IMG/VR virus record: IMGVR_UViG_3300018894_000001
Coordinates: 1-64,000 of that record
DNA from: a virus
Reading direction: 5' to 3' (one strand)
Length of the DNA stretch: 64,000 nt
Part shown: piece after piece, positions 3,050 through 58,676 of the stretch
Layout: each line of letters begins with the position of its first letter
Numbering within the stretch: position 1 is the first letter of the stretch
The notes under the pieces: model-generated
Told to the model about the DNA's origin: nothing
The model's input: only the letters and a program-made list of their open reading frames with translations
The model's database searches: none
Position numbers and translations under genes: made by a program

Positions 3050-4094
3050 CTGGCACCTCGCGCACGCGGACGTACTCTGGCCACTCGCCTATGTCGCCGC
3101 CCTTCGGGTCGGCCAGGTCCATCGGCACGTCATCAACGCGCGGCGCCATCGACACTCCTCGGATGGTGCGCGTATCGACGGGCTGGGCCCCGAGCTGCTT
3201 CACGAAGCACTTCACGCCAGCTTCGGCGCACTGCTTCACGATGTCGCGGACCCACGCGACGTTGAGCGGGCGAGCCTTGCTGCCCGACTCGCCGCCGACA
3301 ATCACCCACGAGATTGGCCACTCCCACCGCCCGCCCTCGTTTGGGATGCGAGGGTCCGGATGCTGGAGATGATCGCCGCCGTTCGTGTGAAGCACAGGCT
3401 TGAGCCACCGAGACAGGTCCACCGGCCCCACCAGAGGCTCAACGGACAGGAAGCGGCGCCGGAAGCCCTTCGCCGCGAGCAGGCGAGGGGCCCACTCGTC
3501 CGCCGTCTTCTGGTCGCTGACGGACGTGCCCAACCACACCAGCGGCCGGACGTCCTCGGGCGCCAGGGCCCAGTTCTCCGGGCGCTTCGTGAGGAGGAGC
3601 CAGTCCAGGCCGGGCGCCTGGGGCATCGCGAGCGTGCCGCCCTCGCGCTCCAGGTCGTCGTCCGGCAGCGACACTGGCATGCGCGTCGTTTGTCGAATGG
3701 TGTCCCAGAGCCGCGCGCGGGCTGCGTCGAGCGCCCGCCGCGCTACGAGAACAAGCTCCCAGCGCAGCTCTTCCTCCAGCGAGCCCCCGGACTCCGGTGG
3801 TGCGTGTGGCACTTCCAGTACGTCAGCCAGCGAGGCGCAGAACACGCGCCGCCGCTCTCCCGCGCGGGCCGCCTCTCTGGCCCACTTCAGCGGCTCCTTC
3901 CACCCGCTGTCCGCCTTCACGACACGCTGGCCGCCCTGCCACACCTCGCCCCACTGGATCTTTCCGCCAGGGCGCATGGCTACTGGGAGGGCGTGCTCGG
4001 CGTAGCACGAGGTACAGCCCGTATGGACCTTGGAACAACCCATCCAGGGGTTGAACGTGTGGTGCGCCCATTGAATCTTCGTCTGCTCTCCCAT
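3042..4094 (-). CDS. Phage Gp37/Gp68-family protein (DUF5131-like)
   Basis: N-terminus IQWAHHTFNPWMGCSKVHTGCTSCYAE, plus WLLLTKRP and VIVGGESG signatures typical of this family. Confidence 0.8.
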   Translation of the reverse strand: MGEQTKIQWAHHTFNPWMGCSKVHTGCTSCYAEHALPVAMRPGGKIQWGEVWQGGQRVVKADSGWKEPLKWAREAARAGERRRVFCASLADVLEVPHAPPESGGSLEEELRWELVLVARRALDAARARLWDTIRQTTRMPVSLPDDDLEREGGTLAMPQAPGLDWLLLTKRPENWALAPEDVRPLVWLGTSVSDQKTADEWAPRLLAAKGFRRRFLSVEPLVGPVDLSRWLKPVLHTNGGDHLQHPDPRIPNEGGRWEWPISWVIVGGESGSKARPLNVAWVRDIVKQCAEAGVKCFVKQLGAQPVDTRTIRGVSMAPRVDDVPMDLADPKGGDIGEWPEYVRVREVPGD

Positions 4095-9608: not shown

Positions 9609-9878
9609 ATGCCGCGACCGAAGAAGACACCAGCAACCGAGCGCCCGCGAGACGCAGGTCCGCCAGCACCGCTGCCCACGGCCCGCCAGACGAGCGGCAA
9701 CGGGACGTACGTGCCGTGCGAAGCGTGCGGCGGCATGCGAATGCCCGGCGGGCCCCATGCCGCCGCGCACATTGAGAACCCGCCCCTGCCATGGCCGCAG
9801 TGCGAGCACGGTGCAGCGTACCTGGTGGACTGCCGGCGCAATGCGGTGGCGCCCCTGTGCTGCCGGGGTATCGCATGA
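9609..9878 (+). CDS. Small Cys-rich protein translationally coupled to the C5-methyltransferase
   Basis: AGGAGA lies 6 nt upstream of the ATG. The stop forms an ATGA overlap with the methyltransferase start. Cys residues at CEACGG ... C ... C ... CC. Confidence 0.4.
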   Translation: MPRPKKTPATERPRDAGPPAPLPTARQTSGNGTYVPCEACGGMRMPGGPHAAAHIENPPLPWPQCEHGAAYLVDCRRNAVAPLCCRGIA

Positions 9879-10786
9879 AGGCCGTTGACCTATTCGCCGG
9901 AGCTGGAGGTTGGACTACGGGCGCGACGCAAGCCGGGGTGCAGGTGGTAGCAGCGATTAACCACTGGCCACGCGCCGTGGAGACGCATGCCGCCAACCAC
10001 CCTGGAGTCATGCACCGGTGCCAGGACATCACGCTGATGGACCCGAGGGATCTGCCTCGCCACGACATGCTAATCGCCTCGCCTGCATGCACAGGCCACA
10101 CCCGAGCCCGCGGAAAGGAGCGCCCCCACCACGACGCCAGTCGCGCAACGGCGTGGGCGGTCGTGGATGTGGCTGAGGTGACACACCCTCGACTTCTACT
10201 GGTGGAGAACGTGCCCGAGTTCCGTCAGTGGCGCCTGTACCGCGCGTGGTGGGCGGCGCTGACGCTGCTGGGCTACCACCTTCAAGAGCATGTCCTCGAC
10301 GCAGCGGACTTCGGCGTGCCTCAGCACCGGGTGCGCCTCTTCGTGGTGGGCCGTCTGGGCAAACGCGCCCCGGTGGTGGTGGCGCCGCGGGTGCCGCACG
10401 TGCCCGTGCGATCCATCCTCCGGTGGGACACCGGCACCTGGTACCCGGTGAGTTCGCGGGTAGAGTCCACGCGCAACCGGGTGGCCCGCGGCCGCGCCGC
10501 CTTCGGCCCCCGCTTCGTCATGCCCTACTACGGCAGCGGCTCCGGCGCGACGGGACGCAGCCTGGACCGTCCGCTTGGCACTGTGCCCGCGGCTGACGTC
10601 TGGGCCGCGGTGGATGGCGACTCCATGCGGATGCTCACCGTTGCCGAACTCCAGGCAGCCATGGGCTTCCCCGCGGAGTATCGCGTCCTTGGCACCCGGG
10701 CAGACCAGACGAAGCAACTCGGCAATGCCGTCGTACCGCCGGTGGCTCGCGAAGTGGTTCGTCAGGTGCTGGAGGCCACCTCATGA
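9875..10786 (+). CDS. DNA (cytosine-5)-methyltransferase
   Basis: Motif I DLFAGAGG, plus LLVENVPEF, QHRVRLF and GNAVVPPVA. Motif IV is atypical (SPACTG rather than PCQ). Confidence 0.85.
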   Translation: MKAVDLFAGAGGWTTGATQAGVQVVAAINHWPRAVETHAANHPGVMHRCQDITLMDPRDLPRHDMLIASPACTGHTRARGKERPHHDASRATAWAVVDVAEVTHPRLLLVENVPEFRQWRLYRAWWAALTLLGYHLQEHVLDAADFGVPQHRVRLFVVGRLGKRAPVVVAPRVPHVPVRSILRWDTGTWYPVSSRVESTRNRVARGRAAFGPRFVMPYYGSGSGATGRSLDRPLGTVPAADVWAAVDGDSMRMLTVAELQAAMGFPAEYRVLGTRADQTKQLGNAVVPPVAREVVRQVLEATS

Positions 10787-14457: not shown

Positions 14458-15002
14458 GCGCACCCCACTGCGACTGGTGCGCGTGTCCGTTCCGCGCGGT
14501 CCTCCTGCAGGTGACGCGGGCGGGGGCCCGTCCGGCTGTCATCTCCCGGCACTACGGGCTGCACCTGTCCACCGTCTCCACCGTCCTCCAGTCAGCTCGG
14601 AAACTCGGCTGCTTGCCGGCCCCGGCCTGCACCTTCTGCCCCAGGACGGTCAACGTGCTCGGTGGCATCTGCGGCGCTTCGGAGTGCAGGCGCGCGTATG
14701 AGCGCGAGTGCAAGCGCCTCAACCGCGCGCGCTACGGCCGGGGTTCGGCTCCTGGGGCCGGACGTCCCCGCTACATCGAGCCAGAGGGCTTCGTCTGGCC
14801 GGTGCTTCCCGAGAACCAGCGACGGCAGACGGGCCGGGTTACGCCTGTCGTCATCCGTGCGCCGCCCATCCTCTACCCGGCGTTCCTGCGCGGAGAGGGC
14901 AACCGCTACCCGATGCAGGCCCCGAGGAACCCCTTGACTGCCCCGCCACTGGCACCAACGCTGTGCAGCACCTGGGATGCGAGGTGGCGCCGTGCAGCGT
15001 GA
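14454..15002 (+). CDS. Hypothetical Cys-rich protein with a possible HTH
   Basis: ATGA coupling to the RHH gene. ISRHYGLHLSTVSTVLQSARK is HTH-like. Confidence 0.45.
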   Translation: MSAPHCDWCACPFRAVLLQVTRAGARPAVISRHYGLHLSTVSTVLQSARKLGCLPAPACTFCPRTVNVLGGICGASECRRAYERECKRLNRARYGRGSAPGAGRPRYIEPEGFVWPVLPENQRRQTGRVTPVVIRAPPILYPAFLRGEGNRYPMQAPRNPLTAPPLAPTLCSTWDARWRRAA

Positions 15003-15960
15003 GCCGCCGCGCCCCTACTACGAGGAGCCGCGCGCCAAGCTCTACGTTGGCGACTGCCTAGATGTGCTCGCGACCCTGCCGGACCGCGCGGCTCGGACCT
15101 GCGTCTCCTCCCCGCCGTACTGGGGGCTCCGTGACTACGGCGTTGCGGGCCAGATCGGCAACGAGCCTACACCAGAGGAGTTCGTCGCCAAGCTCGTGGC
15201 CGTGTTCCGCGAGGTGCGGCGCGTGCTGGCCGATGATGGAACGCTCTGGCTCAACCTGGGCGACTCCTACGCGGGTGCGGCTGGCGGATGTCAGGGGAAG
15301 AACGGCCAGCGTGCGTCTCGGGCATTCACTGCCAAGGTGCAGTCTAAGGCCGGAGAAGGGCTCAAGCCGAAGGACTTGGTAGGCATCCCGTGGATGACCG
15401 CCTTCGCGCTCCGTGCGGACGGCTGGTTCCTTCGCTCAGACGTCATCTGGCACAAGCCCAACCCGATGCCCGAGAGCGTCACGGACAGGCCGACGAAGGC
15501 ACATGAGTACGTCTTTCTCCTCACGACGTCAGCGCGCTACTTCTACGATTCGGCCGCCATTCGCGAGCCTGACAGCGGGCTTCCTTCTGGCAACGGCTTT
15601 ACCGGCCGGCAAGGTGGTTCCGAGCGTGTTGGCCACCTCAGCGGCGGCCCAGGCACATCTGAGCGATGGCAGCCAGGGAAGGGACGCAACGCCCGCACCG
15701 TGTGGAGCATCGCCACTCAGCCCAGCGGCGTGGAGCACTTCGCGCCGATGCCGCCCGAGCTGGCGCGAAGGTGCATCCTCGCAGGCAGCGCGCCCGGTGA
15801 CACGGTGTTGGACCCCTTCAGCGGCGCCGGCACAACGGGCATGGTGGCCATGCAGAACGGCCGCCGATACGTGGGGGTGGAACTCAACCCCGAGTACGCG
15901 GGCGAGACGGTGACGCGCTGGAACCGGGAATGCGCCCAGCTCGGCATTTTCGCCGGCTGA
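14977..15960 (+). CDS. N4/N6 DNA methyltransferase (N6_N4_Mtase, beta class)
   Basis: SSPPYW, VIWHKPNPMPES and DPFSGAGTT motifs. The start is uncertain (alternative GTG at 14992). Confidence 0.85.
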   Translation: MRGGAVQREPPRPYYEEPRAKLYVGDCLDVLATLPDRAARTCVSSPPYWGLRDYGVAGQIGNEPTPEEFVAKLVAVFREVRRVLADDGTLWLNLGDSYAGAAGGCQGKNGQRASRAFTAKVQSKAGEGLKPKDLVGIPWMTAFALRADGWFLRSDVIWHKPNPMPESVTDRPTKAHEYVFLLTTSARYFYDSAAIREPDSGLPSGNGFTGRQGGSERVGHLSGGPGTSERWQPGKGRNARTVWSIATQPSGVEHFAPMPPELARRCILAGSAPGDTVLDPFSGAGTTGMVAMQNGRRYVGVELNPEYAGETVTRWNRECAQLGIFAG

Positions 15961-26147: not shown

Positions 26148-26921
26148 ATGATGCGAACGCAGGACACCCAGGAGGGACACGTGACGCCTTTCTTCGAATC
26201 GCCGCAGCAGGTGGACGGCAAGCCGCAGGTCGTCATCTACAACGCCCGCTGGGAGGACGTGTGGCCCACGCTCGGGCTCCAGCCCAAGGACGTGGACCTG
26301 TGCTGGGCGGACCCGCCGTATGGGGTGAAGGAACGAACGAAGCGAAACAGCGCGGGGCGCGGAATCGGAGAAAAGCGGATTCATGCCAGCAGGCGGGCCC
26401 GGGACTGGAGTGAGTTGGTTGGAGATGATCGAAAATTTGACCCCATGCCGCTGTTGGAATTTCCGCGCTTGGTCACATGGGGTGCGAACCACTACGCGCG
26501 ACAACTCCCGTTGTCCTCGTCATGGTGGTGGGACAAAAGAGAGGGGACGACGCCTGACGACAACGCAGACGGCGAGCTGGCGTGGACGAACCTGGGAGGG
26601 CCCGCGCGCCAGTTTTCGCACCTCTGGAGGGGGCTGTGTCAGGCATCGGAGAAGATGGGTGGCGGTGAACGTATCCACCCCACTCAGAAACCCGTTGCCC
26701 TGTGCGAGTGGGGCTTCCAACGCGCGGGGCTCAAACCCGGCCAGCTCGTCTTCGCTCCGTACTTGGGCAGCGGTCCCGAGGTGCGGGCCGCGATCAACAT
26801 GGGTCTGCGCATCATCGGCTGCGAGGTGGACGCGGACTACTGCCGGACGGTGGTGGCCCACCGCGTCGCGCTCGCGGCGCCCCGCAGGGGGCAGGAGGGT
26901 CAGGTGCTGCTACCGCTCTGA
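26148..26921 (+). CDS. DNA methyltransferase (N6_N4_Mtase-like, DPPY type)
   Basis: WADPPYG, IHPTQKPVAL and FAPYLGSG motifs. Confidence 0.8.
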   Translation: MMRTQDTQEGHVTPFFESPQQVDGKPQVVIYNARWEDVWPTLGLQPKDVDLCWADPPYGVKERTKRNSAGRGIGEKRIHASRRARDWSELVGDDRKFDPMPLLEFPRLVTWGANHYARQLPLSSSWWWDKREGTTPDDNADGELAWTNLGGPARQFSHLWRGLCQASEKMGGGERIHPTQKPVALCEWGFQRAGLKPGQLVFAPYLGSGPEVRAAINMGLRIIGCEVDADYCRTVVAHRVALAAPRRGQEGQVLLPL

Positions 26922-47668: not shown

Positions 47669-47831
47669 CGCAACGAAAGTCGCCGGGGTTTGTGGCCACG
47701 CGCAAGCGCCTGCCTACCCCGTGCGTGCCGCAGCGCATCCGGCCCGCCTGGACGGAGGGCGTTTCCTTGCGCCGCCGCATGTGGGTGCTATGGCTCTTTG
47801 GCCGGCATCCGCTGGCAGGAGGACGCACGCG

Positions 47832-48044
47832 ATGGGCATCAAGAAAATCGAGCTTCAGATGGTGATTCACCCCGAAGAGGGCGAGCGGAAGGAGTTGAGC
47901 GTGGACTTCAACGGGCGCCTGCTGGAGGCATGGCGCGGAACGGCGGACATCTCCGCCCTGGAGGCGGACCTCGCCGAGGTCATGCACCGCGCGATGGCGG
48001 ACGTCATGGCCGTGATTTCCAAGAACACCCGGGGCCCAGTCTGA
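47832..48044 (+). CDS. Small hypothetical protein, opposite in orientation to the head operon
   Basis: AGGAGG lies 8 nt upstream of the ATG, and a strong intrinsic terminator follows. Confidence 0.45.
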   Translation: MGIKKIELQMVIHPEEGERKELSVDFNGRLLEAWRGTADISALEADLAEVMHRAMADVMAVISKNTRGPV

Positions 48045-48049
48045 CCGTC

Positions 48050-48082
48050 AGCCCGGCGGGTTGCTCACCGCCGGGCTTTTTC
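48050..48082 (+). terminator. Rho-independent terminator
   Basis: AGCCCGGCGG-gttgctca-CCGCCGGGCT followed by TTTTCG. Confidence 0.65.
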
Positions 48083-48086
48083 GTGC

Positions 48087-48287
48087 TCACGCACTCGCGG
48101 CGCGCAGGCGCTCCAGCGTCGGCCGTAGCCGCTCCGGCATCGGCTGAAGCAGTGGCGCCCACTGCCGTGCCGCCTCGCTGTCCGGGGCCGCCAGGGCGAG
48201 CCCGTCGCCGATGCCCTTCCCAGGGCCCAGCTCGGCGCGCACGGGGTGCAGTACCTCTCCCGTCTCCAGCACCAGGTAGGCTCTCAC
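48087..48287 (-). CDS. Small hypothetical protein
   Basis: GTGA overlap with the MuF gene stop. Confidence 0.4.
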   Translation of the reverse strand: MRAYLVLETGEVLHPVRAELGPGKGIGDGLALAAPDSEAARQWAPLLQPMPERLRPTLERLRAASA

Positions 48288-49690
48288 TGTCCACCCCACT
48301 TCTGGGCGCCGTACTCGCGCGCCATGTAGTCGGCCACCGACTCGCCGAACTCCTGCGCCACCAACTGCCGCCCGTAGTCGCCGCCGCCCACGGACCACAG
48401 CACCGCGAAGGCCTCGGCGAACGACTCCGAGCGTCCCGTCACCGCGTCGTTGTAGTGGGGCACACGCGTCACCGGAGCCCCGGATGCCATGAAGTCGTCC
48501 CACGCCTTGCGCCACGCGGGCGAGTCGCTCTCCTTCTTGCCGCTGGCGTCGTCCAGGGCGTGCCCCACCTCGTGGATGACGGTGATTCCGCTGTCGCCAA
48601 CGCTCCCGGACACCAGCACCTCGCGCAGTCCGCCCTGGGTGAAGAAAACGCCGCCGATCGCATCCCAACTCATGCCGTCAGCCTGCGGCGGCGCGGCGGC
48701 GATGGCCTCCCCCACCTTCCCGCTACGGCCCAGCAGCCGCAACGGCAGCGGGCTCAGGTGGATGTCCGTCACGGCCTTCTCAATCCTCTCAAGCAGCGCC
48801 GGGGGCAGCCGCGAGAGGTTCGCCACCGCCTCGCGGATGTCCGCCGACTCCTTGGCCCCGTCCACGCGCAGCTTGTCGCCGAGGATGGCTGCGAGCTGCG
48901 GGAGTTCGGCTTCCACCAGGGCGGCGTCCTCCCCGCGCACCGGTCCGCGAGGCAGGCGCTCGTCTACCGCCAGCGGGGGCGGGCCGGCAGCCTCCTTGGC
49001 GCGGTAGGCCGCCTGGAGGGGCGCCGGGGCGTCGGACACGTCCGGCGTCCACGCGTCCCCTGCTGAGCCTGGAGCGGCGCCGAAGCCCGGCGCGGGGGCC
49101 ACGGGCGGCGGCACCGCCGTCACCCCGCGGGCCTTCGCCTGCCTCTCGGTGAGCGCGGACTGCACCCGCCGGCATCGGTGGTGGAGGGGGCTCCAATGCG
49201 TCTGCCACCAGGGATGGGCAGCGGGGAGAACCACGGCTCCAATGCGCCGGCAGATGTCGCTGTTGCGCTCGTCCCGCTGCACCTGAGACAGCACGTAGGG
49301 CCGCACCCGGCGCGTCAGCGGGTCCTGCAGCTGCGTCCACGTCCCGCGGGAGTACGCGGTGGCCAGGTTCGTCCGGTAGATGGTTTCGAGCCGGTGGCCC
49401 GGGTTCGTCACTGTGCCCGCCCATGCCGCCTTCACCTGGGCGCCGACGCGCTTCTTGAAGTCGGCGAAAGTCTCACCGTCCGCCACGGACTTCTCGAGCG
49501 CCTTCCAGACGTCCTGCACGAGTCCGAGCTGCGCGAGTCCGGCCACGCCGAACGCCCGCGAGCGCGCGGCGGCGCCCATGCTCGCCCAGGTGGCGCCGTC
49601 CACGGCAAGGCGCGCGCGGAAGGCGTCCACCGCCTCTTGAAATGCGGGGCCGGAGGGGTTGGCGGTGCCGTTGAGAGGGCTGGAGGCCAT
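48284..49690 (-). CDS. MuF-like minor head protein with a C-terminal HExxH metallopeptidase-like domain
   Basis: MuF pattern RLETIYRTNLATAYSRG...DERNSDIC...PLHHRCRR in the N-terminal half, and ITVIHEVGHALDD in the C-terminal third. Confidence 0.75.
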   Translation of the reverse strand: MASSPLNGTANPSGPAFQEAVDAFRARLAVDGATWASMGAAARSRAFGVAGLAQLGLVQDVWKALEKSVADGETFADFKKRVGAQVKAAWAGTVTNPGHRLETIYRTNLATAYSRGTWTQLQDPLTRRVRPYVLSQVQRDERNSDICRRIGAVVLPAAHPWWQTHWSPLHHRCRRVQSALTERQAKARGVTAVPPPVAPAPGFGAAPGSAGDAWTPDVSDAPAPLQAAYRAKEAAGPPPLAVDERLPRGPVRGEDAALVEAELPQLAAILGDKLRVDGAKESADIREAVANLSRLPPALLERIEKAVTDIHLSPLPLRLLGRSGKVGEAIAAAPPQADGMSWDAIGGVFFTQGGLREVLVSGSVGDSGITVIHEVGHALDDASGKKESDSPAWRKAWDDFMASGAPVTRVPHYNDAVTGRSESFAEAFAVLWSVGGGDYGRQLVAQEFGESVADYMAREYGAQKWGGQ

Positions 49691-49697
49691 GCGGCGT

Positions 49698-49910
49698 CTA
49701 CTGCTCCAGTTGAGAGACGAGGCGGGCCCAGTTGATTCCCAGGAAGGCGTCGGCCACGGCCTTCAGGTGCAACCGGAGACACTCCGGGCTGTGACCCGCG
49801 GCCTTCGCGCGCGCCCACGCATCCATGGCGTCGCGCGTGGTCTCCTGGGGCAAGGGGACGGCGAGGACAGGGGCGCCGCAGGTGGCGCAGGCCTCCGGAG
49901 CGCCCATCAT
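49698..49910 (-). CDS. Small Cys-containing hypothetical protein
   Basis: ATGA overlap with the portal gene stop. Confidence 0.45.
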   Translation of the reverse strand: MMGAPEACATCGAPVLAVPLPQETTRDAMDAWARAKAAGHSPECLRLHLKAVADAFLGINWARLVSQLEQ

Positions 49911-51514
49911 GACACCTGCTCCTTGATGGACGTCTGGCCCGCGAGTTCCGCGAGCAGCCACGCCCGGCGCGTCAGGCCCATGAGCGCGTCGGGCTGCATG
50001 CCGGCGTAGAGCGCCGTGAGCCGCTCGCGCAGGGCCTCCGGGGACTCCGCCGCGTCGATGGCGCCCAGCACCGTCTCCAAGTCGCCCGCGAGCGCCTCGG
50101 CGGCCTGGGCCACCGTGTTCCGCTCAAGCTGGTCCAGGTAGTCCTGGCCGCGCTGAGTCGGGGTCGACAACGTCGCGCCCGCCCGGGAGAGCTTCGCTGG
50201 GACGTCGACCTGCCCCTGCTGCTCGTCCTGGTCGACGTCTGGTGCGGGCTTGGGCTCCGGCGGGGGCTTCGCAGGGCCCCGGGTGGCCACTCCGAAGCGC
50301 TCCGCCTCGGCGTCCACGTCCACGTCCATGCCCGTCGCCTGCAGCGCCTGAATCCCCTCGCCGAGAGCCTTGTACGTGGTGGCGCGCGCCGCCTTGTCCT
50401 CCGGCGGTGAGGCGTCCCACTCGGGCCAGGGCGCCAGCTCGGAGTTGCCGAAGTTGAAGTGCGCCCAGGGCTTCAGCAGTTGCTCCCGGAGGCAGGCCGT
50501 CAGCGTGGTGGCGTCGCTCGCCAGTTTCCGCTGCGCCACACGCTCGTGTACGGACGCCGCGGCGCGGCTGCCCTCCTTGACTTCGGTGGTCAGGTTCTGG
50601 CCCAGCACCCGGATGGCGATGGCGCTGTCGCAGCGGGCAATGAGCTTGTCAAAGCCCTCCTCGGAGCGCCCCAAGGCCTCGACCAGTTCCATGTCGAAGA
50701 CCTCCTCCTGCTGCCCGTTCTTCATCCGCGGCATGACGATGGTGCTCTCAGCGCCGAGCCCAGCCACTTCGTCCCGGAATCGCCGCAGGGCCTTCTCGTC
50801 CACCTTCGCCGGCACGATGGCCTTGCGAATCGGCATGCCGTGCACTTCGCTGTACCGGCTCCAGTCGCGCAGGCAGAACTGGCGCACAAGGAAGGGGATG
50901 GCCAGGCTTCGCACCAGCCCCCGCATCCACGGGCGCTCCGTGCCGTGGGGGGCGTACAGCACCCACTCCGGGCTCCCTGCCTCCACCACGCGCTCGCCGT
51001 CCTCGGCCACGATGCGGAAGGTGCGGGTGCCCCAGTCGTAGCGCAGGAAGCGCGGGTGCCAGACCTTCAGCCGCGGCACCCAGGTAGGCCCCGAGGTGTC
51101 CCACACCTTCTGCGCCACCCCTACGCCAAGCCAGAGCGCCCAGGTGCGGAGCTCGGCGAGCGCTGCCTCGTCCAGCATGACGGGCGCGCTGGTGAGCGCC
51201 TGAGCGGCAGCCTCGTCCGCGCGGGAGCCCAGTCCCTCCGCTGGCTGCACTTCGAATGGCAGGCCCCCGAGCGCTTCCAGCCGTTGCTGCACGGTGGCTT
51301 CAATCCGGTCGTCCCGGCCCATCGCGTCCACCAAGGACGCCGCCTCGGTGAAGATGCCCGACTCCAGGCCCGCCAGCGCGCGCTTCACCTTCGCCACGCG
51401 GTCGAAGTCCGAGGTGCCGAAGAGCGGGAGTTCCTTCGCAGGCACCGCCGGAGGGCGCTCGTAGTCCCGCGCGGGTGCCTGGGGAGCCGGGGCGGCCGTC
51501 GTCTTCTTCGCCAT
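49907..51514 (-). CDS. Portal protein (Mu gp29 / DUF935-like)
   Basis: 535 aa. In gene order it lies between the large terminase gene and the MuF gene. Confidence 0.75.
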   Translation of the reverse strand: MAKKTTAAPAPQAPARDYERPPAVPAKELPLFGTSDFDRVAKVKRALAGLESGIFTEAASLVDAMGRDDRIEATVQQRLEALGGLPFEVQPAEGLGSRADEAAAQALTSAPVMLDEAALAELRTWALWLGVGVAQKVWDTSGPTWVPRLKVWHPRFLRYDWGTRTFRIVAEDGERVVEAGSPEWVLYAPHGTERPWMRGLVRSLAIPFLVRQFCLRDWSRYSEVHGMPIRKAIVPAKVDEKALRRFRDEVAGLGAESTIVMPRMKNGQQEEVFDMELVEALGRSEEGFDKLIARCDSAIAIRVLGQNLTTEVKEGSRAAASVHERVAQRKLASDATTLTACLREQLLKPWAHFNFGNSELAPWPEWDASPPEDKAARATTYKALGEGIQALQATGMDVDVDAEAERFGVATRGPAKPPPEPKPAPDVDQDEQQGQVDVPAKLSRAGATLSTPTQRGQDYLDQLERNTVAQAAEALAGDLETVLGAIDAAESPEALRERLTALYAGMQPDALMGLTRRAWLLAELAGQTSIKEQVS

Positions 51515-51632
51515 GCCCCATGGCTTCGCCTATGTCTGTGGCCACGGTCCAGTCACCTACATGGCGGGAACTTGCCGGGGCCCCGGGCACTGGTACCGTC
51601 CTGGTGCCGGTTGGTCCCGGTATGGAGGAGCA

Positions 51633-51968
51633 ATGTTGATGGCGTCCCCTCTGATTCCGCGCATCCTCGCTATCTTGGCGCATCATGGCTTCTCGTGGCC
51701 GGGAGGTGCCGCTCCATCCGATCTGGAGGTGCGCACCATTCGCTCATCACGGGCGCAACGCACGTCTGGTGCGTGGTCTTGGTCTCTCTGGTCGGACTCT
51801 TGCGCCAAGGCCGCAGACATAGGCAGCCAGGAAACTGCATCCCGAATCGCTCAACTAGGTCCACTTCGTACCACCATCGACACCAACCGCTACGGCCAGA
51901 TCTCAATTGACCCAAGTCGGGATGTGGGTCGCAAACTGGGCACCCCTGCGGAGTCCTCCTCTTCGTAG
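51633..51968 (+). CDS. Hypothetical protein (cassette gene A), low confidence
   Basis: GGAGGAG upstream of the ATG, moderate GC3, and a terminator-like hairpin downstream. Could alternatively be non-coding. Confidence 0.35.
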   Translation: MLMASPLIPRILAILAHHGFSWPGGAAPSDLEVRTIRSSRAQRTSGAWSWSLWSDSCAKAADIGSQETASRIAQLGPLRTTIDTNRYGQISIDPSRDVGRKLGTPAESSSS

Positions 51969-51996
51969 GCGGGACCACACCGAGCGCGGGTAGGCG

Positions 51997-52034
51997 AGGG
52001 CTCCGGGGAAACCTGGGGCCCTTCGTCTTTCTTG
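51997..52034 (+). terminator. Terminator-like hairpin plus T-rich tail (inside direct repeat DR1)
   Basis: AGGGCTCC-10 nt-GGGGCCCT followed by TCGTCTTTCTTG. Confidence 0.45.
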
Positions 52035-52098
52035 CGGTGTCGCGCCGCGTGCCGCATGGTGCGGGTGCCGGTTTGCCCCGGCAGAAAGCGAGCACGCA

Positions 52099-52785
52099 AT
52101 GAGCAGCATCACCTTCAGCAATGGCGAGGATTCGGCAGAGCTTCGCGGTAGTGAGCGCGCATGGATGGGGTACGTGTGCGATGCGCTCGCCGCGGCGTCT
52201 CTGGGGCCAGTGTTTGACGATCCGGATCGTCCGCACTGGACGCGCCGACTGTTCCCGCCGGGTCACTACGTCGCACAGAAGGCGGGGCGCGAATACGAGG
52301 AGAGCATCCTGACGTGGCTTCGGGTTGGCGGCCGTGGGATGTGCAATCCGGAGACCGGGGCGCCCGTGGATGCCTTCGGCGTCATCCTCAACACGGCGAT
52401 GACCCTGGGTGGAGACGCCGTGCGCCTGATGGCCCGCATTCACGCGCAGTGCGAAATCCACGGGTTCATCCCGCCAGAGTCGGCCGACTTCGTTGTGGGC
52501 ATCATCGAACAGGGCCGGAAGACGCGGTTGTGCCGCGACGGCATGGGGTGGGAGGCCGTGACAGCGCTGCTGAAGGCGTCGGCTGTCGCCAAGCTACCGG
52601 TCGTCATGTCCTACAGCGTTACCGACACCTTCCCTGGCTGGGACGCGCAGAAGGACGAGCCGAAGACGTGGGATGTCGCCTTCGCGGAGCTGGACGGCCT
52701 GCTGGCCATCCGCGAGGAGACGTGGAAGGACTACCACTTCGGCGATGGGAGCACGCTCCTTTCGCTGGAGCCGCGCACACCGTAG
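52099..52785 (+). CDS. Hypothetical protein (cassette gene B)
   Basis: 228 aa with protein-like composition. Opposite in orientation to the flanking packaging genes. Confidence 0.55.
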   Translation: MSSITFSNGEDSAELRGSERAWMGYVCDALAAASLGPVFDDPDRPHWTRRLFPPGHYVAQKAGREYEESILTWLRVGGRGMCNPETGAPVDAFGVILNTAMTLGGDAVRLMARIHAQCEIHGFIPPESADFVVGIIEQGRKTRLCRDGMGWEAVTALLKASAVAKLPVVMSYSVTDTFPGWDAQKDEPKTWDVAFAELDGLLAIREETWKDYHFGDGSTLLSLEPRTP

Positions 52786-52814
52786 CGTACGCCGTCACCG
52801 AAAGTGAGCACGAC

Positions 52815-53282
52815 ATGGGTCAAAGCACGGACGCGATTCTTTTTTGGGGCTACTGCTGGGACGAGGAGCGAGCCTGGCCGTGGGACGATCCGGGTGCAGA
52901 TGAAGAGGAGACCGCTAGCGAGCGATACGCGCGCCTGACTGGCCTCAAGCAGCCTGACAACGGGTATCCTATGGAGATCGACAAGAGCCCTGAAGCCGAT
53001 GCCATCCGAGCAAGGCATGCTGAGTACTGGCAGGCGGAGAACGAGGCATGGAATGCCGTGCGGATGGAGGTGGGCACGCACTGCCATGGCGAGTGCCCCA
53101 TGCCCTACGTCGCAGTCGGCGAGAGTCACACGCTCGCCAGTCGCGGCACGCCGGAGCCCATCTCTTCTCTTGCGGTTGGCGAGGACTGGCGAGCGCGCCT
53201 GGACAGCTTCTGCAGTCTCATGGGGATTGAGCCGCCAGGAGGCCAGCAGCCACAGTGGTGGCTCGTGAGCGACTGGCACTAG
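52815..53282 (+). CDS. Hypothetical acidic Trp-rich protein (cassette gene C)
   Basis: 155 aa. Its leader GAAAGTGAGCACGACATG resembles the gene B leader GAAAGCGAGCACGCAATG. Confidence 0.55.
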   Translation: MGQSTDAILFWGYCWDEERAWPWDDPGADEEETASERYARLTGLKQPDNGYPMEIDKSPEADAIRARHAEYWQAENEAWNAVRMEVGTHCHGECPMPYVAVGESHTLASRGTPEPISSLAVGEDWRARLDSFCSLMGIEPPGGQQPQWWLVSDWH

Positions 53283-53349
53283 CGCACACCGTAGCGGTGG
53301 CTCTGCCGCAACGGCGGGCAACCCTGGCCCGGGGGCGCGAAGGGCGGCG

Positions 53350-53390
53350 AGGGCTCAGTGCCGAGAGGTGCCGGGCCCTTCGTCTTTCCT
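53350..53390 (+). terminator. Weaker terminator-like element (inside direct repeat DR2)
   Basis: AGGGCTC...GGGCCCT followed by TCGTCTTTCC. Confidence 0.3.
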
Positions 53391-53392
53391 GG

Positions 53393-54961
53393 CTACATGC
53401 TCCGCTCGACGCCCGCGCTGAAGTCGAAACCTCCCATGTCGCCCCAGTCCACCTCTTCGCCGAGCATCAACTCGGTGATGGCCCACACCACCGAGTCCAT
53501 CCGGTTGGGGCTCGACTTCGAACGCCCCGGGACCCAGGTGGTCTGCTCGTCCTCCAGCGCCACCAGCCGCCCCACGTGGTGGACCATGTCGCGCTCGTAG
53601 AGGGCCGCCACCGGCTCGGCGCGCACCGCCTTGCCTCGGGAGGCTGTGACCATCTTCACGTTGACCTGGCGCCCCATCTCCTTCGCCTTGGAGCGGATGT
53701 TGGTGAGCACCAGGTCGCCACCGAAGTTCTTCTCCGCTACCACGACGTCGGCCTTCTCCCGCTCGTACAGCGCCAGCGCCTTCGTTGCCCATGCCTCGGC
53801 GGAGAGCTTCCCCGAGGCGTCTTCCCAGACGTAGGCGTGCCCATCCGTCGCGCGGCCGGCGCAGGTGATGCCCACCTCGTCATTCTCCGGGCCGTCGCCG
53901 CCGCTCGGGTCCACGGCAACGACGATGCGTACCATATCCAGTGGCTGTCCCAGGCTGTCGGTGGGGCGAGCGGGCCTGCGCGAGCGGTCGAGAATCTCTT
54001 GGGTCCAGAGCGCGCCCACGGCCGCAGCCTTGAATGCCTCCTCTGCGGTGGCCGGGTACTCTCGCCGGAAGTGGTGGACGCCGCCGAGCTCCACGATTTT
54101 CGAGCGCCGCCACGCCATCTGCTCGACGTCCAGCCCATGCTCTTCCTGGTAGCGCTCTTCCTCGCTCGTGAGGACGAAGCCCTTCGCGGGCGCCTTGCGG
54201 TACTCCGCGCTCCAGAACCACGGCACGAAGATGAGCTGGTAGTCGCCTTCTCCACGCTGTGCGGCCATGGCGATTTCGTAGAAGACGCCGGCCGGCCCGT
54301 TGCTCGTGGACTCGAGGATGATTTCGGTGCCTGGCAGGTCCGGCACCGCCTGGAGCACGCCAGCCACGTGCGTGTCAGCATTGGGCCAGAAGGCCACCTC
54401 CGAGCCGTGGAAGTAGTGGATGGTGGAGCCGCGCCCCGTTCCCCTGCTTCCGGCAGTGCCGACTTTGTAGCCGCTGTTCAGCTGGTCGAAGAGCAATTCC
54501 TTGGCGTTCGCCGCTCCGGTGGACGGCCTCACGCCCTCCGGGCAATTGTCATGGTACATCTTCGCCATGTCGAAGAGGTTCGTGGTCGCGCTGTCCTCAT
54601 GCGTGAGGATGTACGCGCGCCGCCCCTTCTGGCTCGTCACCTTGTGGTAGTAGCGGGCCTCCGTGTACGTCGAGCAGCCCTGCTGCCGTCCTTTCAGGAT
54701 GACGGCGCGCACCCGGCCAGTCTCGCGCAGCTGCTCCTCCAGGCGCTGGTGGATGTACACCTGGGGCTGGTTCAGCTTCAGAGGGTGAATGCCGCCTTCC
54801 TTCGTGCGGATGAAGAGGCATGTGGCGGCGAAGTGCGGGAAGTCCTCCCGCAGTCGCTGCCGCTCAGCCCGTTTCGTCCTCTCCGCCTCCACCGCCGTCA
54901 GCAGTGTCAGGGCCGAGGAGTGCGCGCTGCGCGATGCGCCCGAGCGCCTCAAGGTCGTCAT
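53393..54961 (-). CDS. Terminase large subunit
   Basis: Walker A-like ILKGRQQGCST and a nuclease-domain pattern (VAVDPSGG...VVVAEKNFGGD). The start is uncertain because it overlaps the upstream gene. Confidence 0.85.
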   Translation of the reverse strand: MTTLRRSGASRSAHSSALTLLTAVEAERTKRAERQRLREDFPHFAATCLFIRTKEGGIHPLKLNQPQVYIHQRLEEQLRETGRVRAVILKGRQQGCSTYTEARYYHKVTSQKGRRAYILTHEDSATTNLFDMAKMYHDNCPEGVRPSTGAANAKELLFDQLNSGYKVGTAGSRGTGRGSTIHYFHGSEVAFWPNADTHVAGVLQAVPDLPGTEIILESTSNGPAGVFYEIAMAAQRGEGDYQLIFVPWFWSAEYRKAPAKGFVLTSEEERYQEEHGLDVEQMAWRRSKIVELGGVHHFRREYPATAEEAFKAAAVGALWTQEILDRSRRPARPTDSLGQPLDMVRIVVAVDPSGGDGPENDEVGITCAGRATDGHAYVWEDASGKLSAEAWATKALALYEREKADVVVAEKNFGGDLVLTNIRSKAKEMGRQVNVKMVTASRGKAVRAEPVAALYERDMVHHVGRLVALEDEQTTWVPGRSKSSPNRMDSVVWAITELMLGEEVDWGDMGGFDFSAGVERSM

Positions 54962-55340
54962 CGGACAAGTGCTCCAGGTTGTCGAGGGAAACGCTCAGCG
55001 GACCGCCGCCAGCGCCCGTCACCTCAATGAACTTCTGCGCCGTGCCATGCATCCTGTCGTAGAGCACCTTCTGCGCGGCGATGCTCTCCGCGAAACTGGG
55101 CGGCTCCTCCACCTGTACCACACCGTCCTTCGTGACGATGTGCCGCACGCGCGTCACCTTTCCAAGCACCACTGATCGTAGAAAGTCACCACCCTCTTTG
55201 CCGTTGCGGGTCTGCAGGCGCAGGTACTTAGCGAGCCCAGCGGCGCCCTTGGGACGGCCGTTGGGGTTGCCGCTCGTCTTTGGCGGGAAGGGGCGTCCAG
55301 GCGGCTTCTTCCCGCCGCTGTTACCAGCGTCGTCGCCCAT
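54864..55340 (-). CDS. Small terminase-like protein
   Basis: N-terminal PGRPFPPKTSGNPNGRPKG motif, common in small proteins encoded just upstream of large terminases. Confidence 0.5.
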   Translation of the reverse strand: MGDDAGNSGGKKPPGRPFPPKTSGNPNGRPKGAAGLAKYLRLQTRNGKEGGDFLRSVVLGKVTRVRHIVTKDGVVQVEEPPSFAESIAAQKVLYDRMHGTAQKFIEVTGAGGGPLSVSLDNLEHLSDDDLEALGRIAQRALLGPDTADGGGGGEDETG

Positions 55341-58035: not shown

Positions 58036-58559
58036 AGCTCCCGCAGCGCCTCATGCAGTGGAAGGACGTCGTGGAGCCGTGCGCGCGCTACTACCGCCTG
58101 GACTCGGCTCTCGTCTACGCCGTCATGGACAGGGAGTCCAACGGCGGCGAGCTACTCAAGCCCCGCGGGCCCGGCGGCACCGGGGACTTCGGCCACGGCA
58201 GAGGCCTTATGCAGATCGATGACCGGGCACACCCCTTCACCTCTTGCGAGGACGACACGGGCCGCGCGCTCTGGGCTGACGCCTGGTTCAACGTCTCCTA
58301 CGCCTGCCGCCTGCTCGCGCGCCTCATGCTCACCTTCAACGGTGACGTAGCAGCGGCCGTGGGAGCGTACAACACGGGCGCCGGCAACGTGCGCAAGGCA
58401 CTGGCGGGCGTGGCGGCGACGGCGAGCCTTGAGGAGCGCGTCAAGGCCGTGGACAGGTACACGGCGGGCCATGACTACGTGCGGGACGTGCTACGGCGGC
58501 GAGCGTCCTTCCTCGGCGAGCCCGGGCCGGTGCCGCCGCCGGTGCGCCCCATTGCCTGA
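58032..58559 (+). CDS. Lytic transglycosylase (SLT-domain) endolysin
   Basis: DRESNG (catalytic Glu), GLMQI and AYNTGAGNV motifs. Confidence 0.8.
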   Translation: MKLPQRLMQWKDVVEPCARYYRLDSALVYAVMDRESNGGELLKPRGPGGTGDFGHGRGLMQIDDRAHPFTSCEDDTGRALWADAWFNVSYACRLLARLMLTFNGDVAAAVGAYNTGAGNVRKALAGVAATASLEERVKAVDRYTAGHDYVRDVLRRRASFLGEPGPVPPPVRPIA

Positions 58560-58676
58560 AAAGACGAAGGGCCCCGGTCGTTCAACCCGAGGCCCTTCAC
58601 CCTGGACCTTGGCGGTACCCAGAGACACTTGGCGGTGCACGCCCTTTCTACCTCACCGCGAGCTGAGCGCAAGCCC

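What the first reader, a model, noticed from the sequence alone, without database searches (positions are those of the whole stretch)
51515..53392. Plus-strand three-gene cassette array, bracketed by imperfect direct repeats, between the terminase and portal genes
In Mu-like head modules the large terminase and portal genes are normally adjacent. Here they are 1.9 kb apart, and the gap carries three oppositely oriented ORFs (51633-51968, 52099-52785, 52815-53282) of visibly lower GC. The junctions share sequence. CGCACACCGTAGCG overlaps or follows the stops of genes B and C, and a related ACCACACCGAGCG follows gene A. The leaders of B and C are near-identical (GAAAGCGAGCACGCAATG versus GAAAGTGAGCACGACATG). 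The stretch GGCGAGGGCTC...GGGCCCTTCGTCTTTC(T/C)TG occurs both before the B-C pair (51991-52034) and after it (53345-53392), and in each case it forms a terminator-like hairpin with a T-rich tail. This looks like modular cassette gain by recombination at a conserved junction, that is, an accessory-gene hotspot. None of the three proteins is recognisable by eye. Genes in such phage hotspots are often defence, anti-defence or toxin-immunity functions, so this is the best candidate here for an undescribed system.
Basis: partly seen in the sequence, partly recalled or inferred. Interest (0 to 1): 0.7.

Follow-up and report, generated by a model that had tools for sequence, protein, structure and literature searches.

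The report
Accessory-gene insert between phage terminase and portal
An Mx4-like phage of myxobacteria carries a 1.83-kb block of three uncharacterised accessory genes, with their own predicted start and stop signals, inserted backwards between its terminase and portal genes; this is an ordinary kind of phage gene gain ("moron") whose cargo has no known function.

Summary
Window 51564-53392 is a 1.83-kb insertion relative to the closest relatives, where terminase (TerL) and portal genes lie 2-41 nt apart. A 7-nt direct repeat, CTACATG, flanks it.

It carries three real plus-strand genes: A (probably 51639-51968), B (52099-52785) and C (52815-53282). Each has a homolog family and dN/dS of 0.24-0.33. 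None matches Pfam, PHROGs, NCBIfam or PADLOC. B and C fold confidently (pLDDT 95) with no PDB neighbour.

The repeats are regulatory:
- Two strand-asymmetric intrinsic-terminator hairpins of a widespread high-GC type.
- A promoter-like motif plus an 18-nt palindromic leader before A and B.
- A duplicated 13-nt ribosome-site leader and 15-nt B tail, marking C as a 509-nt insertion behind B.

In a 68%-identical B copy elsewhere (L003), B's stop is followed directly by the sequence that follows C here.

A, B and C never co-occur in the other loci examined. They sit in small-gene arrays or other slots of unrelated phages. This argues against an obligate multi-gene system.

Verdict: a serially assembled moron cluster with shared regulatory flanks, resembling the promoter-early stem-loop (PeSL) cassettes of T4-type phages. 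It is not a conserved hotspot at this junction. Function is unknown, and the prophage framing is unsupported. Interest is modest.

The parts
51515..51556 (-). Native TerL-portal spacer with the portal ribosome site. This is backbone, not insert.
   Evidence: Window 51400-51566 aligns with the L008 portal 5' end, its 41-nt spacer and the TerL stop.
51557..51563 (.). Left copy of the 7-nt direct repeat CTACATG (reverse complement CATGTAG, the terminal Met codon plus stop of the ancestral TerL).
   Evidence: There are only two copies in 51500-53450, one at each edge of the insert.
51572..51599 (+). Promoter-like site for gene A: TTGCCG, 16 nt, TACCGT (inferred).
   Evidence: The same layout, TTGC(G/C)N-N16/17-xAxxxT a few nt before the leader, occurs upstream of window B, L003 B and the L008 188-aa gene. 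The strict sigma-70 consensus scan does not detect it.
51603..51620 (+). Leader palindrome GGTGCCGGTTGGTCCCGG, which is either a 5'-UTR hairpin or an operator.
   Evidence: (D1).
51639..51968 (+). Gene A. A basic protein (pI 9.8 computed for the 111-aa ORF from 51633) of an uncharacterised family with the motif AGRHQRSAGAWSW...VGSQ. It is 109 aa from ATG 51639; an alternative start is at 51633.
   Evidence: 25 homologs; alignment A6; dN/dS 0.32; no Pfam, PHROG, NCBIfam, PADLOC or PDB match.
51993..52034 (+). Terminator T1 hairpin plus T-rich tail. Its tail overlaps the -35 of the B promoter, forming a composite terminator-promoter.
   Evidence: -41 kcal/mol, z -5.2; the opposite strand gives only -23.5.
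52032..52060 (+). Promoter-like site for B-C: TTGCGG, 17 nt, CATGGT (inferred, weak -10).
   Evidence: The homologous L003 site is TTGCGT-N17-GATAAT.
52064..52096 (+). Leader palindrome GGTGCCGGTTTGCCCCGG followed by the ribosome-site leader GAAAGCGAGCACG.
   Evidence: 73% nt identity to L003 starts 39 nt upstream of B.
52099..52785 (+). Gene B. 228 aa, acidic (pI 5.0), an uncharacterised family with invariant E119, H121, R146, W151 and S171-Y172-S173.
   Evidence: 46 homologs; alignment A1; AF2 pLDDT 95.1; no PDB fold match; the only BFVD match is Gordonia phage VanLee gp61; dN/dS 0.27-0.33.
52773..52787 (+). First copy of the 15-nt repeat GCGCACACCGTAGCG (the last codons of B plus its stop).
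52800..52812 (+). Duplicated ribosome-site leader GAAAGTGAGCACG in front of C.
   Evidence: The leader of the C homolog in L008 is unrelated.
52815..53282 (+). Gene C. 155 aa, acidic (pI 4.4), an uncharacterised family with the motifs MGQSTDAILFYGY...THCSGECPMPYV...WWLVSDW.
   Evidence: 56 homologs; alignment A2; AF2 pLDDT 94.8; no PDB fold match; dN/dS 0.24-0.30.
53282..53296 (+). Second copy of the 15-nt repeat, a vestige of B's 3' end after C's stop (it reads R-T-P-stop in frame).
53297..53345 (+). Trailer that originally followed B.
   Evidence: 83% nt identity over window 53282-53351 to the sequence from the last 13 nt of B onwards in L003.
53346..53391 (+). Terminator T2 hairpin plus tail, flush against the TerL stop codon.
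   Evidence: -37.8 on the plus strand against -28.0 on the minus strand.
53393..53399 (.). Right copy of the 7-nt direct repeat CTACATG (the actual TerL stop plus Met codon).

Best explanation
The block is a moron-type insertion in an Mx4-like, Mu-like-head phage of myxobacteria.

Two promoter-to-terminator units, oriented against the late operon, were placed exactly after the TerL stop codon. The units are P_A-leader-A-T1 and P_B-leader-B-C-T2.

The block was assembled in steps:
(1) A leader-B-trailer-terminator unit moves as a whole between phages.
(2) C was added behind B in a 509-nt insertion bounded by copies of B's 13-nt ribosome-site leader and its 15-nt 3' end.
(3) The A unit carries the same promoter/leader type and the same terminator type.

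The outer joint shows only 7 nt of repeat, which points to microhomology or illegitimate recombination. The inner joints re-use regulatory sequence, as with PeSL cassettes of T4-type phages.

The hairpins are much stronger on the plus-strand RNA and have a U-tail only there. They should therefore stop A and B-C transcripts while letting antisense late transcription run from TerL into the portal gene.

A, B and C are three independent, non-structural accessory proteins of unknown biochemistry. Their relatives sit among small genes of unknown function in other phages, next to replication genes in Gordonia phage VanLee. Their most likely role is host takeover or counter-defence during infection. 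That last step is inference only.
For: Insertion:
- TerL and portal are adjacent in Mx4, L008 and L048.
- Window 51400-51566 matches the L008 portal 5' end, spacer and TerL stop. Window 53393-53465 matches the L008 TerL tail.
- The CTACATG repeat sits at both edges.

Real genes.

Mobile unit:
- The L003 B unit shares 73% nt identity from 39 nt upstream of the start codon to the stop.
- Its trailer matches, at 83%, the sequence that follows C in the window.
- L003 is otherwise a different phage.

Shared flanks with different cargo and sites:
- The leader occurs before window A, window B, L003 B and the L008 188-aa gene.
- The terminator occurs after all of these and after L008 C.
- Three variable slots between the collinear window and L008 each hold promoter-to-terminator units.

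Strand asymmetry of the hairpins.

Independence of A, B and C: profile HMMs find B alone in L002, L003, L013 and L055, C alone in L008, L016 and L056, and A alone in L036. Further contexts are L093 and L095.

Other contexts: small-gene arrays of unknown function; in VanLee the array lies between replication genes.

Lower GC.

Concept sources: morons (PMC3594210) and PeSLs (PMC2839356 and PMC4122927).
Against: - No transcription data exist. The strict sigma-70 scan found no promoter, and the proposed -10 of P_B (CATGGT) is poor.
- The leader hairpin is no more stable than shuffled sequence. It could be a DNA operator or simply shared ancestry.
- The terminator type is common in unrelated high-GC phages and bacteria. 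Once the right arm is fixed, the left arm is constrained by pairing, so similarity among terminators may be convergent.
- No variant lacking B-C or A was found, so recombination between T1 and T2 is hypothetical.
- Only three related phage contexts support the shared-flank pattern.
- The function of A, B and C rests on context and charge alone.
Confidence: 0.7

Rival explanations
1. B and C, with or without A, form one functional system such as toxin-immunity, a defence system or a two-part anti-defence system. The cassette moves as that system.
For: B and C are co-transcribed by design: there is a 29-nt gap, no terminator between them, and a shared T2. Both are acidic. Genes in such inserts are often defence-related, but that is general knowledge rather than something tested here.
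Against: There is no PADLOC hit. B occurs without C in L002, L003, L013, L055 and L095. C occurs without B in L008, L016, L056 and L093. In L003 the B unit is complete without C, and C is visibly a later insertion.
Confidence: 0.1
2. The junction similarities are only functional convergence (generic GC-rich terminators, similar ribosome sites) and played no part in how the genes were acquired. The whole block arrived in one illegitimate recombination event.
For: GAAGGGCCC...GGGCCCTTCGTCTTT hairpins occur in Actinomycetota, Acidobacteriota, Myxococcota and Betaproteobacteria and in unrelated viral contigs. The outer joint has only 7 nt of repeat.
Against: The exact 15-nt copy of B's coding 3' end after C's stop, and the 13/14-nt leader copy, are not functional requirements. 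They sit precisely at the edges of a 509-nt indel relative to L003. The leader palindrome with its promoter spacing is shared by four units with three different cargos. T1 and the L059 element share about 40 nt including non-stem flanks.
Confidence: 0.25
3. A, B or C are selfish mobility genes (homing-endonuclease-like) that inserted themselves next to the terminase gene.
For: Insertions next to or within packaging genes are typical of homing elements. The relative L008 carries an intein in MuF. The TerL itself has been swapped.
Against: No member of the three families has a nuclease or other Pfam domain. There is no PDB sequence match, and no PDB fold match for B or C. The families mostly sit in ordinary small-gene arrays.
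Confidence: 0.05
4. The three genes are conserved head or packaging accessory components of this phage group.
For: Their position inside the head module.
Against: They are absent from this position in Mx4, L008 and L048. Mx4 was not among the records matched by B or C in the phage collection. They have opposite orientation, their own predicted signals, and homologs in other phages outside recognisable head modules.
Confidence: 0.02

Closest known systems
Morons of tailed phages (Juhala/Hendrix concept; reviewed in PMC3594210)
   Same: Extra DNA sits between two genes that are adjacent in related phages. It is bounded by its own promoter-like site and terminator, has deviating base composition, carries non-essential cargo of unknown function, and is spread horizontally as a unit.
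   Different: It is oriented against the late operon. Three genes lie in two units assembled serially. The host phage group (Mx4-like) is considered virulent, so expression in lysogens, the classic moron setting, probably does not apply. Promoter activity is untested.
PeSL mobile regulatory cassettes of T4-type phages (PMC2839356, PMC4122927)
   Same: Composite stem-loop terminator plus promoter motifs flank non-essential ORFs. The same motifs bound the indels that distinguish related phages. T1's tail runs straight into a -35-like TTGCGG. Direct repeats (T1/T2) bracket B-C.
   Different: The phage lineage differs (Mu-like head, high-GC myxophage). Few copies are present: three terminators and two leaders in 64 kb. 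The units sit inside the structural module rather than in hyperplastic early regions. No mini-circles or recombinants have been observed. There is no sequence relationship to PeSLs.
Uncharacterised phage protein families, e.g. Gordonia phage VanLee gp61 (B family); Rhodobacter phage RcXuper and Virus Rctr197k hypothetical proteins (C family)
   Same: Clear homology: tblastn 4e-20 and 2e-11. Foldseek of B against VanLee gives E 2.5e-15 and TM 0.79.
   Different: In those phages the genes lie in long same-strand arrays of small genes, not as an inverted insert in the head module. None has an assigned function.

Membership tests
Moron | Inserted between two genes that are adjacent in related phages | tested here: met
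   TerL|portal gap is 2 nt in Mx4, 41 nt in L008 and 5 nt in L048, against 1878 nt here. Both flanks align to the L008 junction.
Moron | Own transcription terminator | tested here: met
   T1 and T2 are hairpins with T-rich tails on the plus strand. This is a prediction only; there are no RNA data.
Moron | Own promoter | tested here: inconclusive
   The strict sigma-70 scan found none. A conserved TTGC(G/C)N-N16/17-xAxxxT motif precedes four related units, and the L003 version is TTGCGT-N17-GATAAT.
Moron | Base composition differs from the neighbours | tested here: met
   GC is 0.61-0.67 against 0.69-0.74. GC3 is 0.63, 0.83 and 0.74 for A, B and C, against 0.89-0.91 for TerL and portal.
Moron | Transcribed independently of the surrounding operon (classically from the prophage) | not testable with these tools
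   Needs RNA-seq. No lysogeny genes were found, and Mx4 is regarded as virulent.
PeSL-like mobile regulatory cassette | Composite stem-loop terminator plus promoter motif | tested here: met
   The T1 tail CGTCTTTCTTGCGG overlaps the -35-like hexamer of P_B. A similar composite occurs in L059. This is sequence-level evidence only.
PeSL-like mobile regulatory cassette | Motifs coincide with indel boundaries between related genomes | tested here: met
   Three variable slots between the window and L008, the B unit in L003, and the C indel are all bounded by promoter/leader on one side and terminator on the other.
PeSL-like mobile regulatory cassette | Many dispersed copies per genome in plastic regions | tested here: inconclusive
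   Only three terminator copies and two leader copies occur in 64 kb.
PeSL-like mobile regulatory cassette | Recombination between copies (deletions, mini-circles) | not testable with these tools
   All four independent contigs carry the same A-B-C arrangement. No variant was seen.
Known anti-phage defence or toxin-antitoxin system | Components match known defence families | tested here: not met
   PADLOC gave 0 hits at E<=1. Pfam, NCBIfam and PHROGs gave 0 hits.
Known anti-phage defence or toxin-antitoxin system | Components co-occur as a conserved gene pair or set | tested here: not met
   A, B and C never co-occur in the other contexts examined.
Integron-type gene cassette array | Integrase plus attC-type imperfect inverted repeats at cassette ends | tested here: not met
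   The junctions are direct repeats of coding and ribosome-site sequence plus terminators. No integrase was found among 27 window proteins scanned.
Homing endonuclease gene | Recognisable nuclease domain | tested here: not met
   No member of the three families has a domain hit, and B and C have no structural neighbour in the PDB.

The most novel reading that the evidence does not exclude
Mu-like-head myxophages use a PeSL-like system of portable promoter-leader and strand-specific terminator modules. These plug single genes, in inverted orientation, into any intergenic joint of the late operon. Under this reading A, B and C are three new-fold effectors acting on the myxobacterial host or its defences (for example the CBASS/CRISPR island), each working alone.
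Probability: 0.25. Interest if true: 0.55.

Novelty: new member of a known kind. Interest (0 to 1): 0.35.

Why it matters
The locus is a clean example of how phage accessory genes are acquired. The steps can be read from the sequence: first a unit, then a gene added inside the unit, all inserted flush against a stop codon.

It shows that regulatory flanks, rather than the genes, are what related myxophages share. This extends the PeSL idea beyond T4-type phages, although on few examples.

It also flags three protein families absent from Pfam, PHROGs, NCBIfam and PADLOC. Two of them have confident predicted folds without PDB neighbours, and they occur in phages of Myxococcota, Actinomycetota and Alphaproteobacteria. 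If any of them proves to be a host-takeover or counter-defence factor, the family would be broadly relevant.

As it stands, this is an ordinary phenomenon with unknown cargo.

Tried and rejected
- ORF A as non-coding RNA or a decayed gene. I proposed this from its flat codon-position GC and its absence from gene calls. I rejected it after phmmer found 25 homologs, a conserved motif and dN/dS of 0.32. Rfam gave nothing above threshold, and no tRNAs were found.
- Function by sequence. Pfam, PHROGs, PADLOC and NCBIfam on the window proteins, and Pfam and PHROGs on family members, gave nothing. PDB profile searches gave nothing credible.
- Function by fold. Foldseek against the PDB gave nothing for B or C (best E 2.3 and 0.72, TM below 0.25). 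BFVD returned only B's own family.
- Relatives in representative genomes. The portal search found none.
- Leader scan in IMG/VR. It gave one apparently unrelated hit, L035.
- Terminator 16-mer scans. These showed a generic motif rather than a lineage marker.
- A long relic of the TerL 3' end beside the portal. Only CATGTAG is duplicated.
- The leader as an unusually stable RNA hairpin. This is not supported (z about 0).
Full report
**What is there**

The window is about 70% GC and appears to be phage throughout. The finding sits in a minus-strand Mu-like head module:
- a small-terminase-like gene, 54864-55340;
- TerL, 53393-54961 (Terminase_6C);
- the portal gene, 49907-51514 (Portal_Mu, 8e-65);
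- MuF, 48284-49690.

The portal is 69% nt and 56% aa identical to that of Myxococcus phage Mx4. Between TerL and portal lie 1878 nt of lower GC (0.61-0.67 against 0.69-0.74), carrying three plus-strand ORFs.

**Are the ORFs genes?**

B and C show normal codon-position GC bias. A does not, and gene callers skipped it in four identical contigs, so I first suspected A was non-coding.

That was wrong. phmmer against 1.84 billion representatives found 25 homologs, the best at 7.5e-27 and 58% identity. They share a conserved motif, AGRHQRSAGAWSW...VGSQ. dN/dS against the closest homolog is 0.32.

B has 46 homologs and C has 56. Both have strongly conserved motifs and dN/dS of 0.24-0.33.

The homologs of A start MSP..., and GGAGGAG lies at 51624-51630. 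The start of A is therefore probably ATG 51639 rather than 51633.

**Is it an insertion?**

Yes. TerL and portal are 2 nt apart in Mx4. They are 41 nt apart in the metagenomic phage L008, whose portal is 83% aa identical and which is collinear with the window over the head and tail genes. They are 5 nt apart in L048, whose TerL is 74% identical to the window's.

At nucleotide level:
- Window 51400-51566 aligns with the L008 portal 5' end, its spacer and the TerL stop.
- Window 53393-53465 aligns with the last 73 nt of the L008 TerL.

The extra DNA is therefore about 51564-53392. It is flanked by a 7-nt direct repeat, CTACATG, which is the terminal Met codon plus stop of TerL.

The arrangement is identical in contigs from four different samples, so it is not an assembly artefact.

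**What the repeats are**

(1) T1 (51993-52034) and T2 (53346-53391) are hairpins with T-rich tails on the plus strand. A third copy lies at 58556-58620 on the minus strand.
- They contain G·U pairs, so they are much weaker on the opposite strand: -41.0 against -23.5 kcal/mol for T1, and -37.8 against -28.0 for T2.
- They should therefore stop plus-strand transcripts while allowing the antisense late transcript to reach the portal gene. This is inference.
- The 16-mer GGGCCCTTCGTCTTTY is not specific to this phage. It occurs in 36 IMG/VR stretches, nearly all as hairpins in 58-71% GC contigs with no detectable relationship to this phage. It also occurs in many high-GC bacteria, including several Myxococcota.
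- Once the right arm is fixed, the left arm is constrained by pairing. Some copies do share non-stem flanks with T1 (L059, L082, L090).

(2) An 18-nt palindromic leader, GGYGCCGGTTKGYCCCGG, lies 13-19 nt upstream of the start codons of A and B. It also precedes the B homolog in L003 and an unrelated 188-aa gene in L008.
- Each copy is preceded at fixed distance by TTGC(G/C)N-N16/17-xAxxxT. In L003 this reads TTGCGT-N17-GATAAT.
- The strict consensus scan does not call these promoters.
- The hairpin is not unusually stable, so it could be a 5'-UTR stem or an operator.

(3) The B/C leader pair (13 of 14 nt) and the exact 15-mer GCGCACACCGTAGCG mark a 509-nt indel.
- In L003 (B 68% aa, 73% nt from 39 nt upstream of the start codon), B's stop is followed directly by the trailer and terminator that follow C in the window, at 83% nt identity over 71 nt.
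- After C's own stop, the 15-mer still reads R-T-P-stop, which is B's C-terminus.
- The leader of the C homolog in L008 is unrelated.
- C was therefore inserted behind B, re-using B's ribosome-site leader and its tail.

Its 3' part belongs to the T1 flank.

**Hotspot or general habit?**

Between the collinear window and L008 there are three variable joints:

| Joint | L008 | Window |
|---|---|---|
| protease\|MuF | 163 aa + 55 aa + a C homolog (57% aa) | a 70-aa gene, 47832-48044, with its own terminator |
| MuF\|portal | the 188-aa gene | no opposite-strand insert |
| portal\|TerL | empty | A-B-C |

All these inserts are opposite-strand, promoter-to-terminator units lying flush against the neighbouring genes. 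So the TerL|portal joint is not itself a conserved hotspot. The habit is to plug inverted units into any joint of the late operon.

The B unit also occurs in an otherwise different phage (L003), between baseplate genes.

**Are A, B and C a system?**

Profile HMMs of the three families found them together only in this phage:
- B alone in L002, L003, L013 and L055 (Gordonia phage VanLee);
- C alone in L008, L016 and L056 (Virus Rctr197k);
- A alone in L036.

L095 (B) and L093 (C) add two further contexts. Distant homologs sit in long same-strand arrays of small genes of unknown function in 85-200-kb phage genomes or contigs. This argues against an obligate multi-gene system.

**Function**

- No hit in Pfam, PHROGs, NCBIfam or PADLOC, for the window proteins or for any family member scanned.
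- No credible PDB sequence hit.
- AlphaFold2 models of B and C are confident (pLDDT 95.1 and 94.8) but have no PDB neighbour. In BFVD, B matches only VanLee gp61.
- B and C are acidic (pI 5.0 and 4.4) and A is basic (pI 9.8).
- B has an invariant E119/H121 within H-A-Q-C-E-I-H, plus R146 and S-Y-S. C has an invariant H89-C90.

These features are compatible with small enzymes or metal-binding proteins, but that is speculation. My best guess is infection-phase host-interaction or counter-defence proteins acting singly, held at low confidence.

**Lifestyle**

- No integrase or repressor was found among the 27 window proteins scanned.
- The portal has no relative in 185,579 representative genomes.
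- Mx4 is regarded as virulent (PMC6070905).

**Comparison with known things**

The block meets the sequence-level criteria of a moron (PMC3594210). The composite terminator-promoter flanks that bound indels resemble the PeSL cassettes of T4-type phages (PMC2839356, PMC4122927), but with few copies and no evidence of ongoing recombination.

**Verdict**

This is a real, well-defined, serially assembled moron cluster with uncharacterised cargo. It is a new member of a known kind and of modest interest.

Noticed in passing
window 53393-54961 (-): TerL is a non-orthologous replacement. It shows no BLASTP similarity to the TerL of the closest relatives (L008, Mx4) except in the last 17 residues, yet it is 74% identical to the TerL in L048. 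Its last 73 nt are 78% identical to the L008 TerL tail. All four TerLs end W.D...F......R.M*. It is probably a chimeric TerL that keeps the resident portal-docking tail.
   Followed up: partly
window 58556-58620 (-): A third copy of the same terminator type (GAAGGGCC...GGGCCCTTCGTCTTTT). It lies between the SLT-domain gene and a 561-aa minus-strand gene.
   Followed up: partly
window 47767-48083 (+): Another inverted moron in the protease|MuF joint: -35-like TTGCGC, a 70-aa gene at 47832-48044, and a classical terminator at 48050-48083. In L008 the same promoter region drives a different cargo that includes the C homolog.
   Followed up: partly
window 48284-49690 (-): MuF has a C-terminal half that matches a PHROG peptidase family (phrog_4415) and weakly matches the anthrax lethal-factor domain. 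It contains HEVGH, which suggests a MuF-fused metallopeptidase.
   Followed up: no
L008 8811-11222: The MuF gene of the close relative carries an intein (Hint_2 / Intein_splicing). The window's MuF does not.
   Followed up: no
window 9791-10786, 14977-15960, 26148-26921 (+): Three DNA methyltransferase genes, one C5 and two N6/N4. They presumably protect the phage against restriction.
   Followed up: no
L095 ~3500-3610: The B homolog (52% aa) starts about 45 nt after a sequence with a tRNA T-arm signature (GGTTCGAATCC). A phage tRNA gene therefore seems to lie directly upstream.
   Followed up: no
window 51639-51968 and L036 708-1022: Gene A lacks the GC3 bias of its 70% GC phage. By eye, its closest homolog in another high-GC contig also uses AT-ending codons, although both are under purifying selection. 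This is unexplained; recent transfer or an overlapping constraint are possible reasons.
   Followed up: partly
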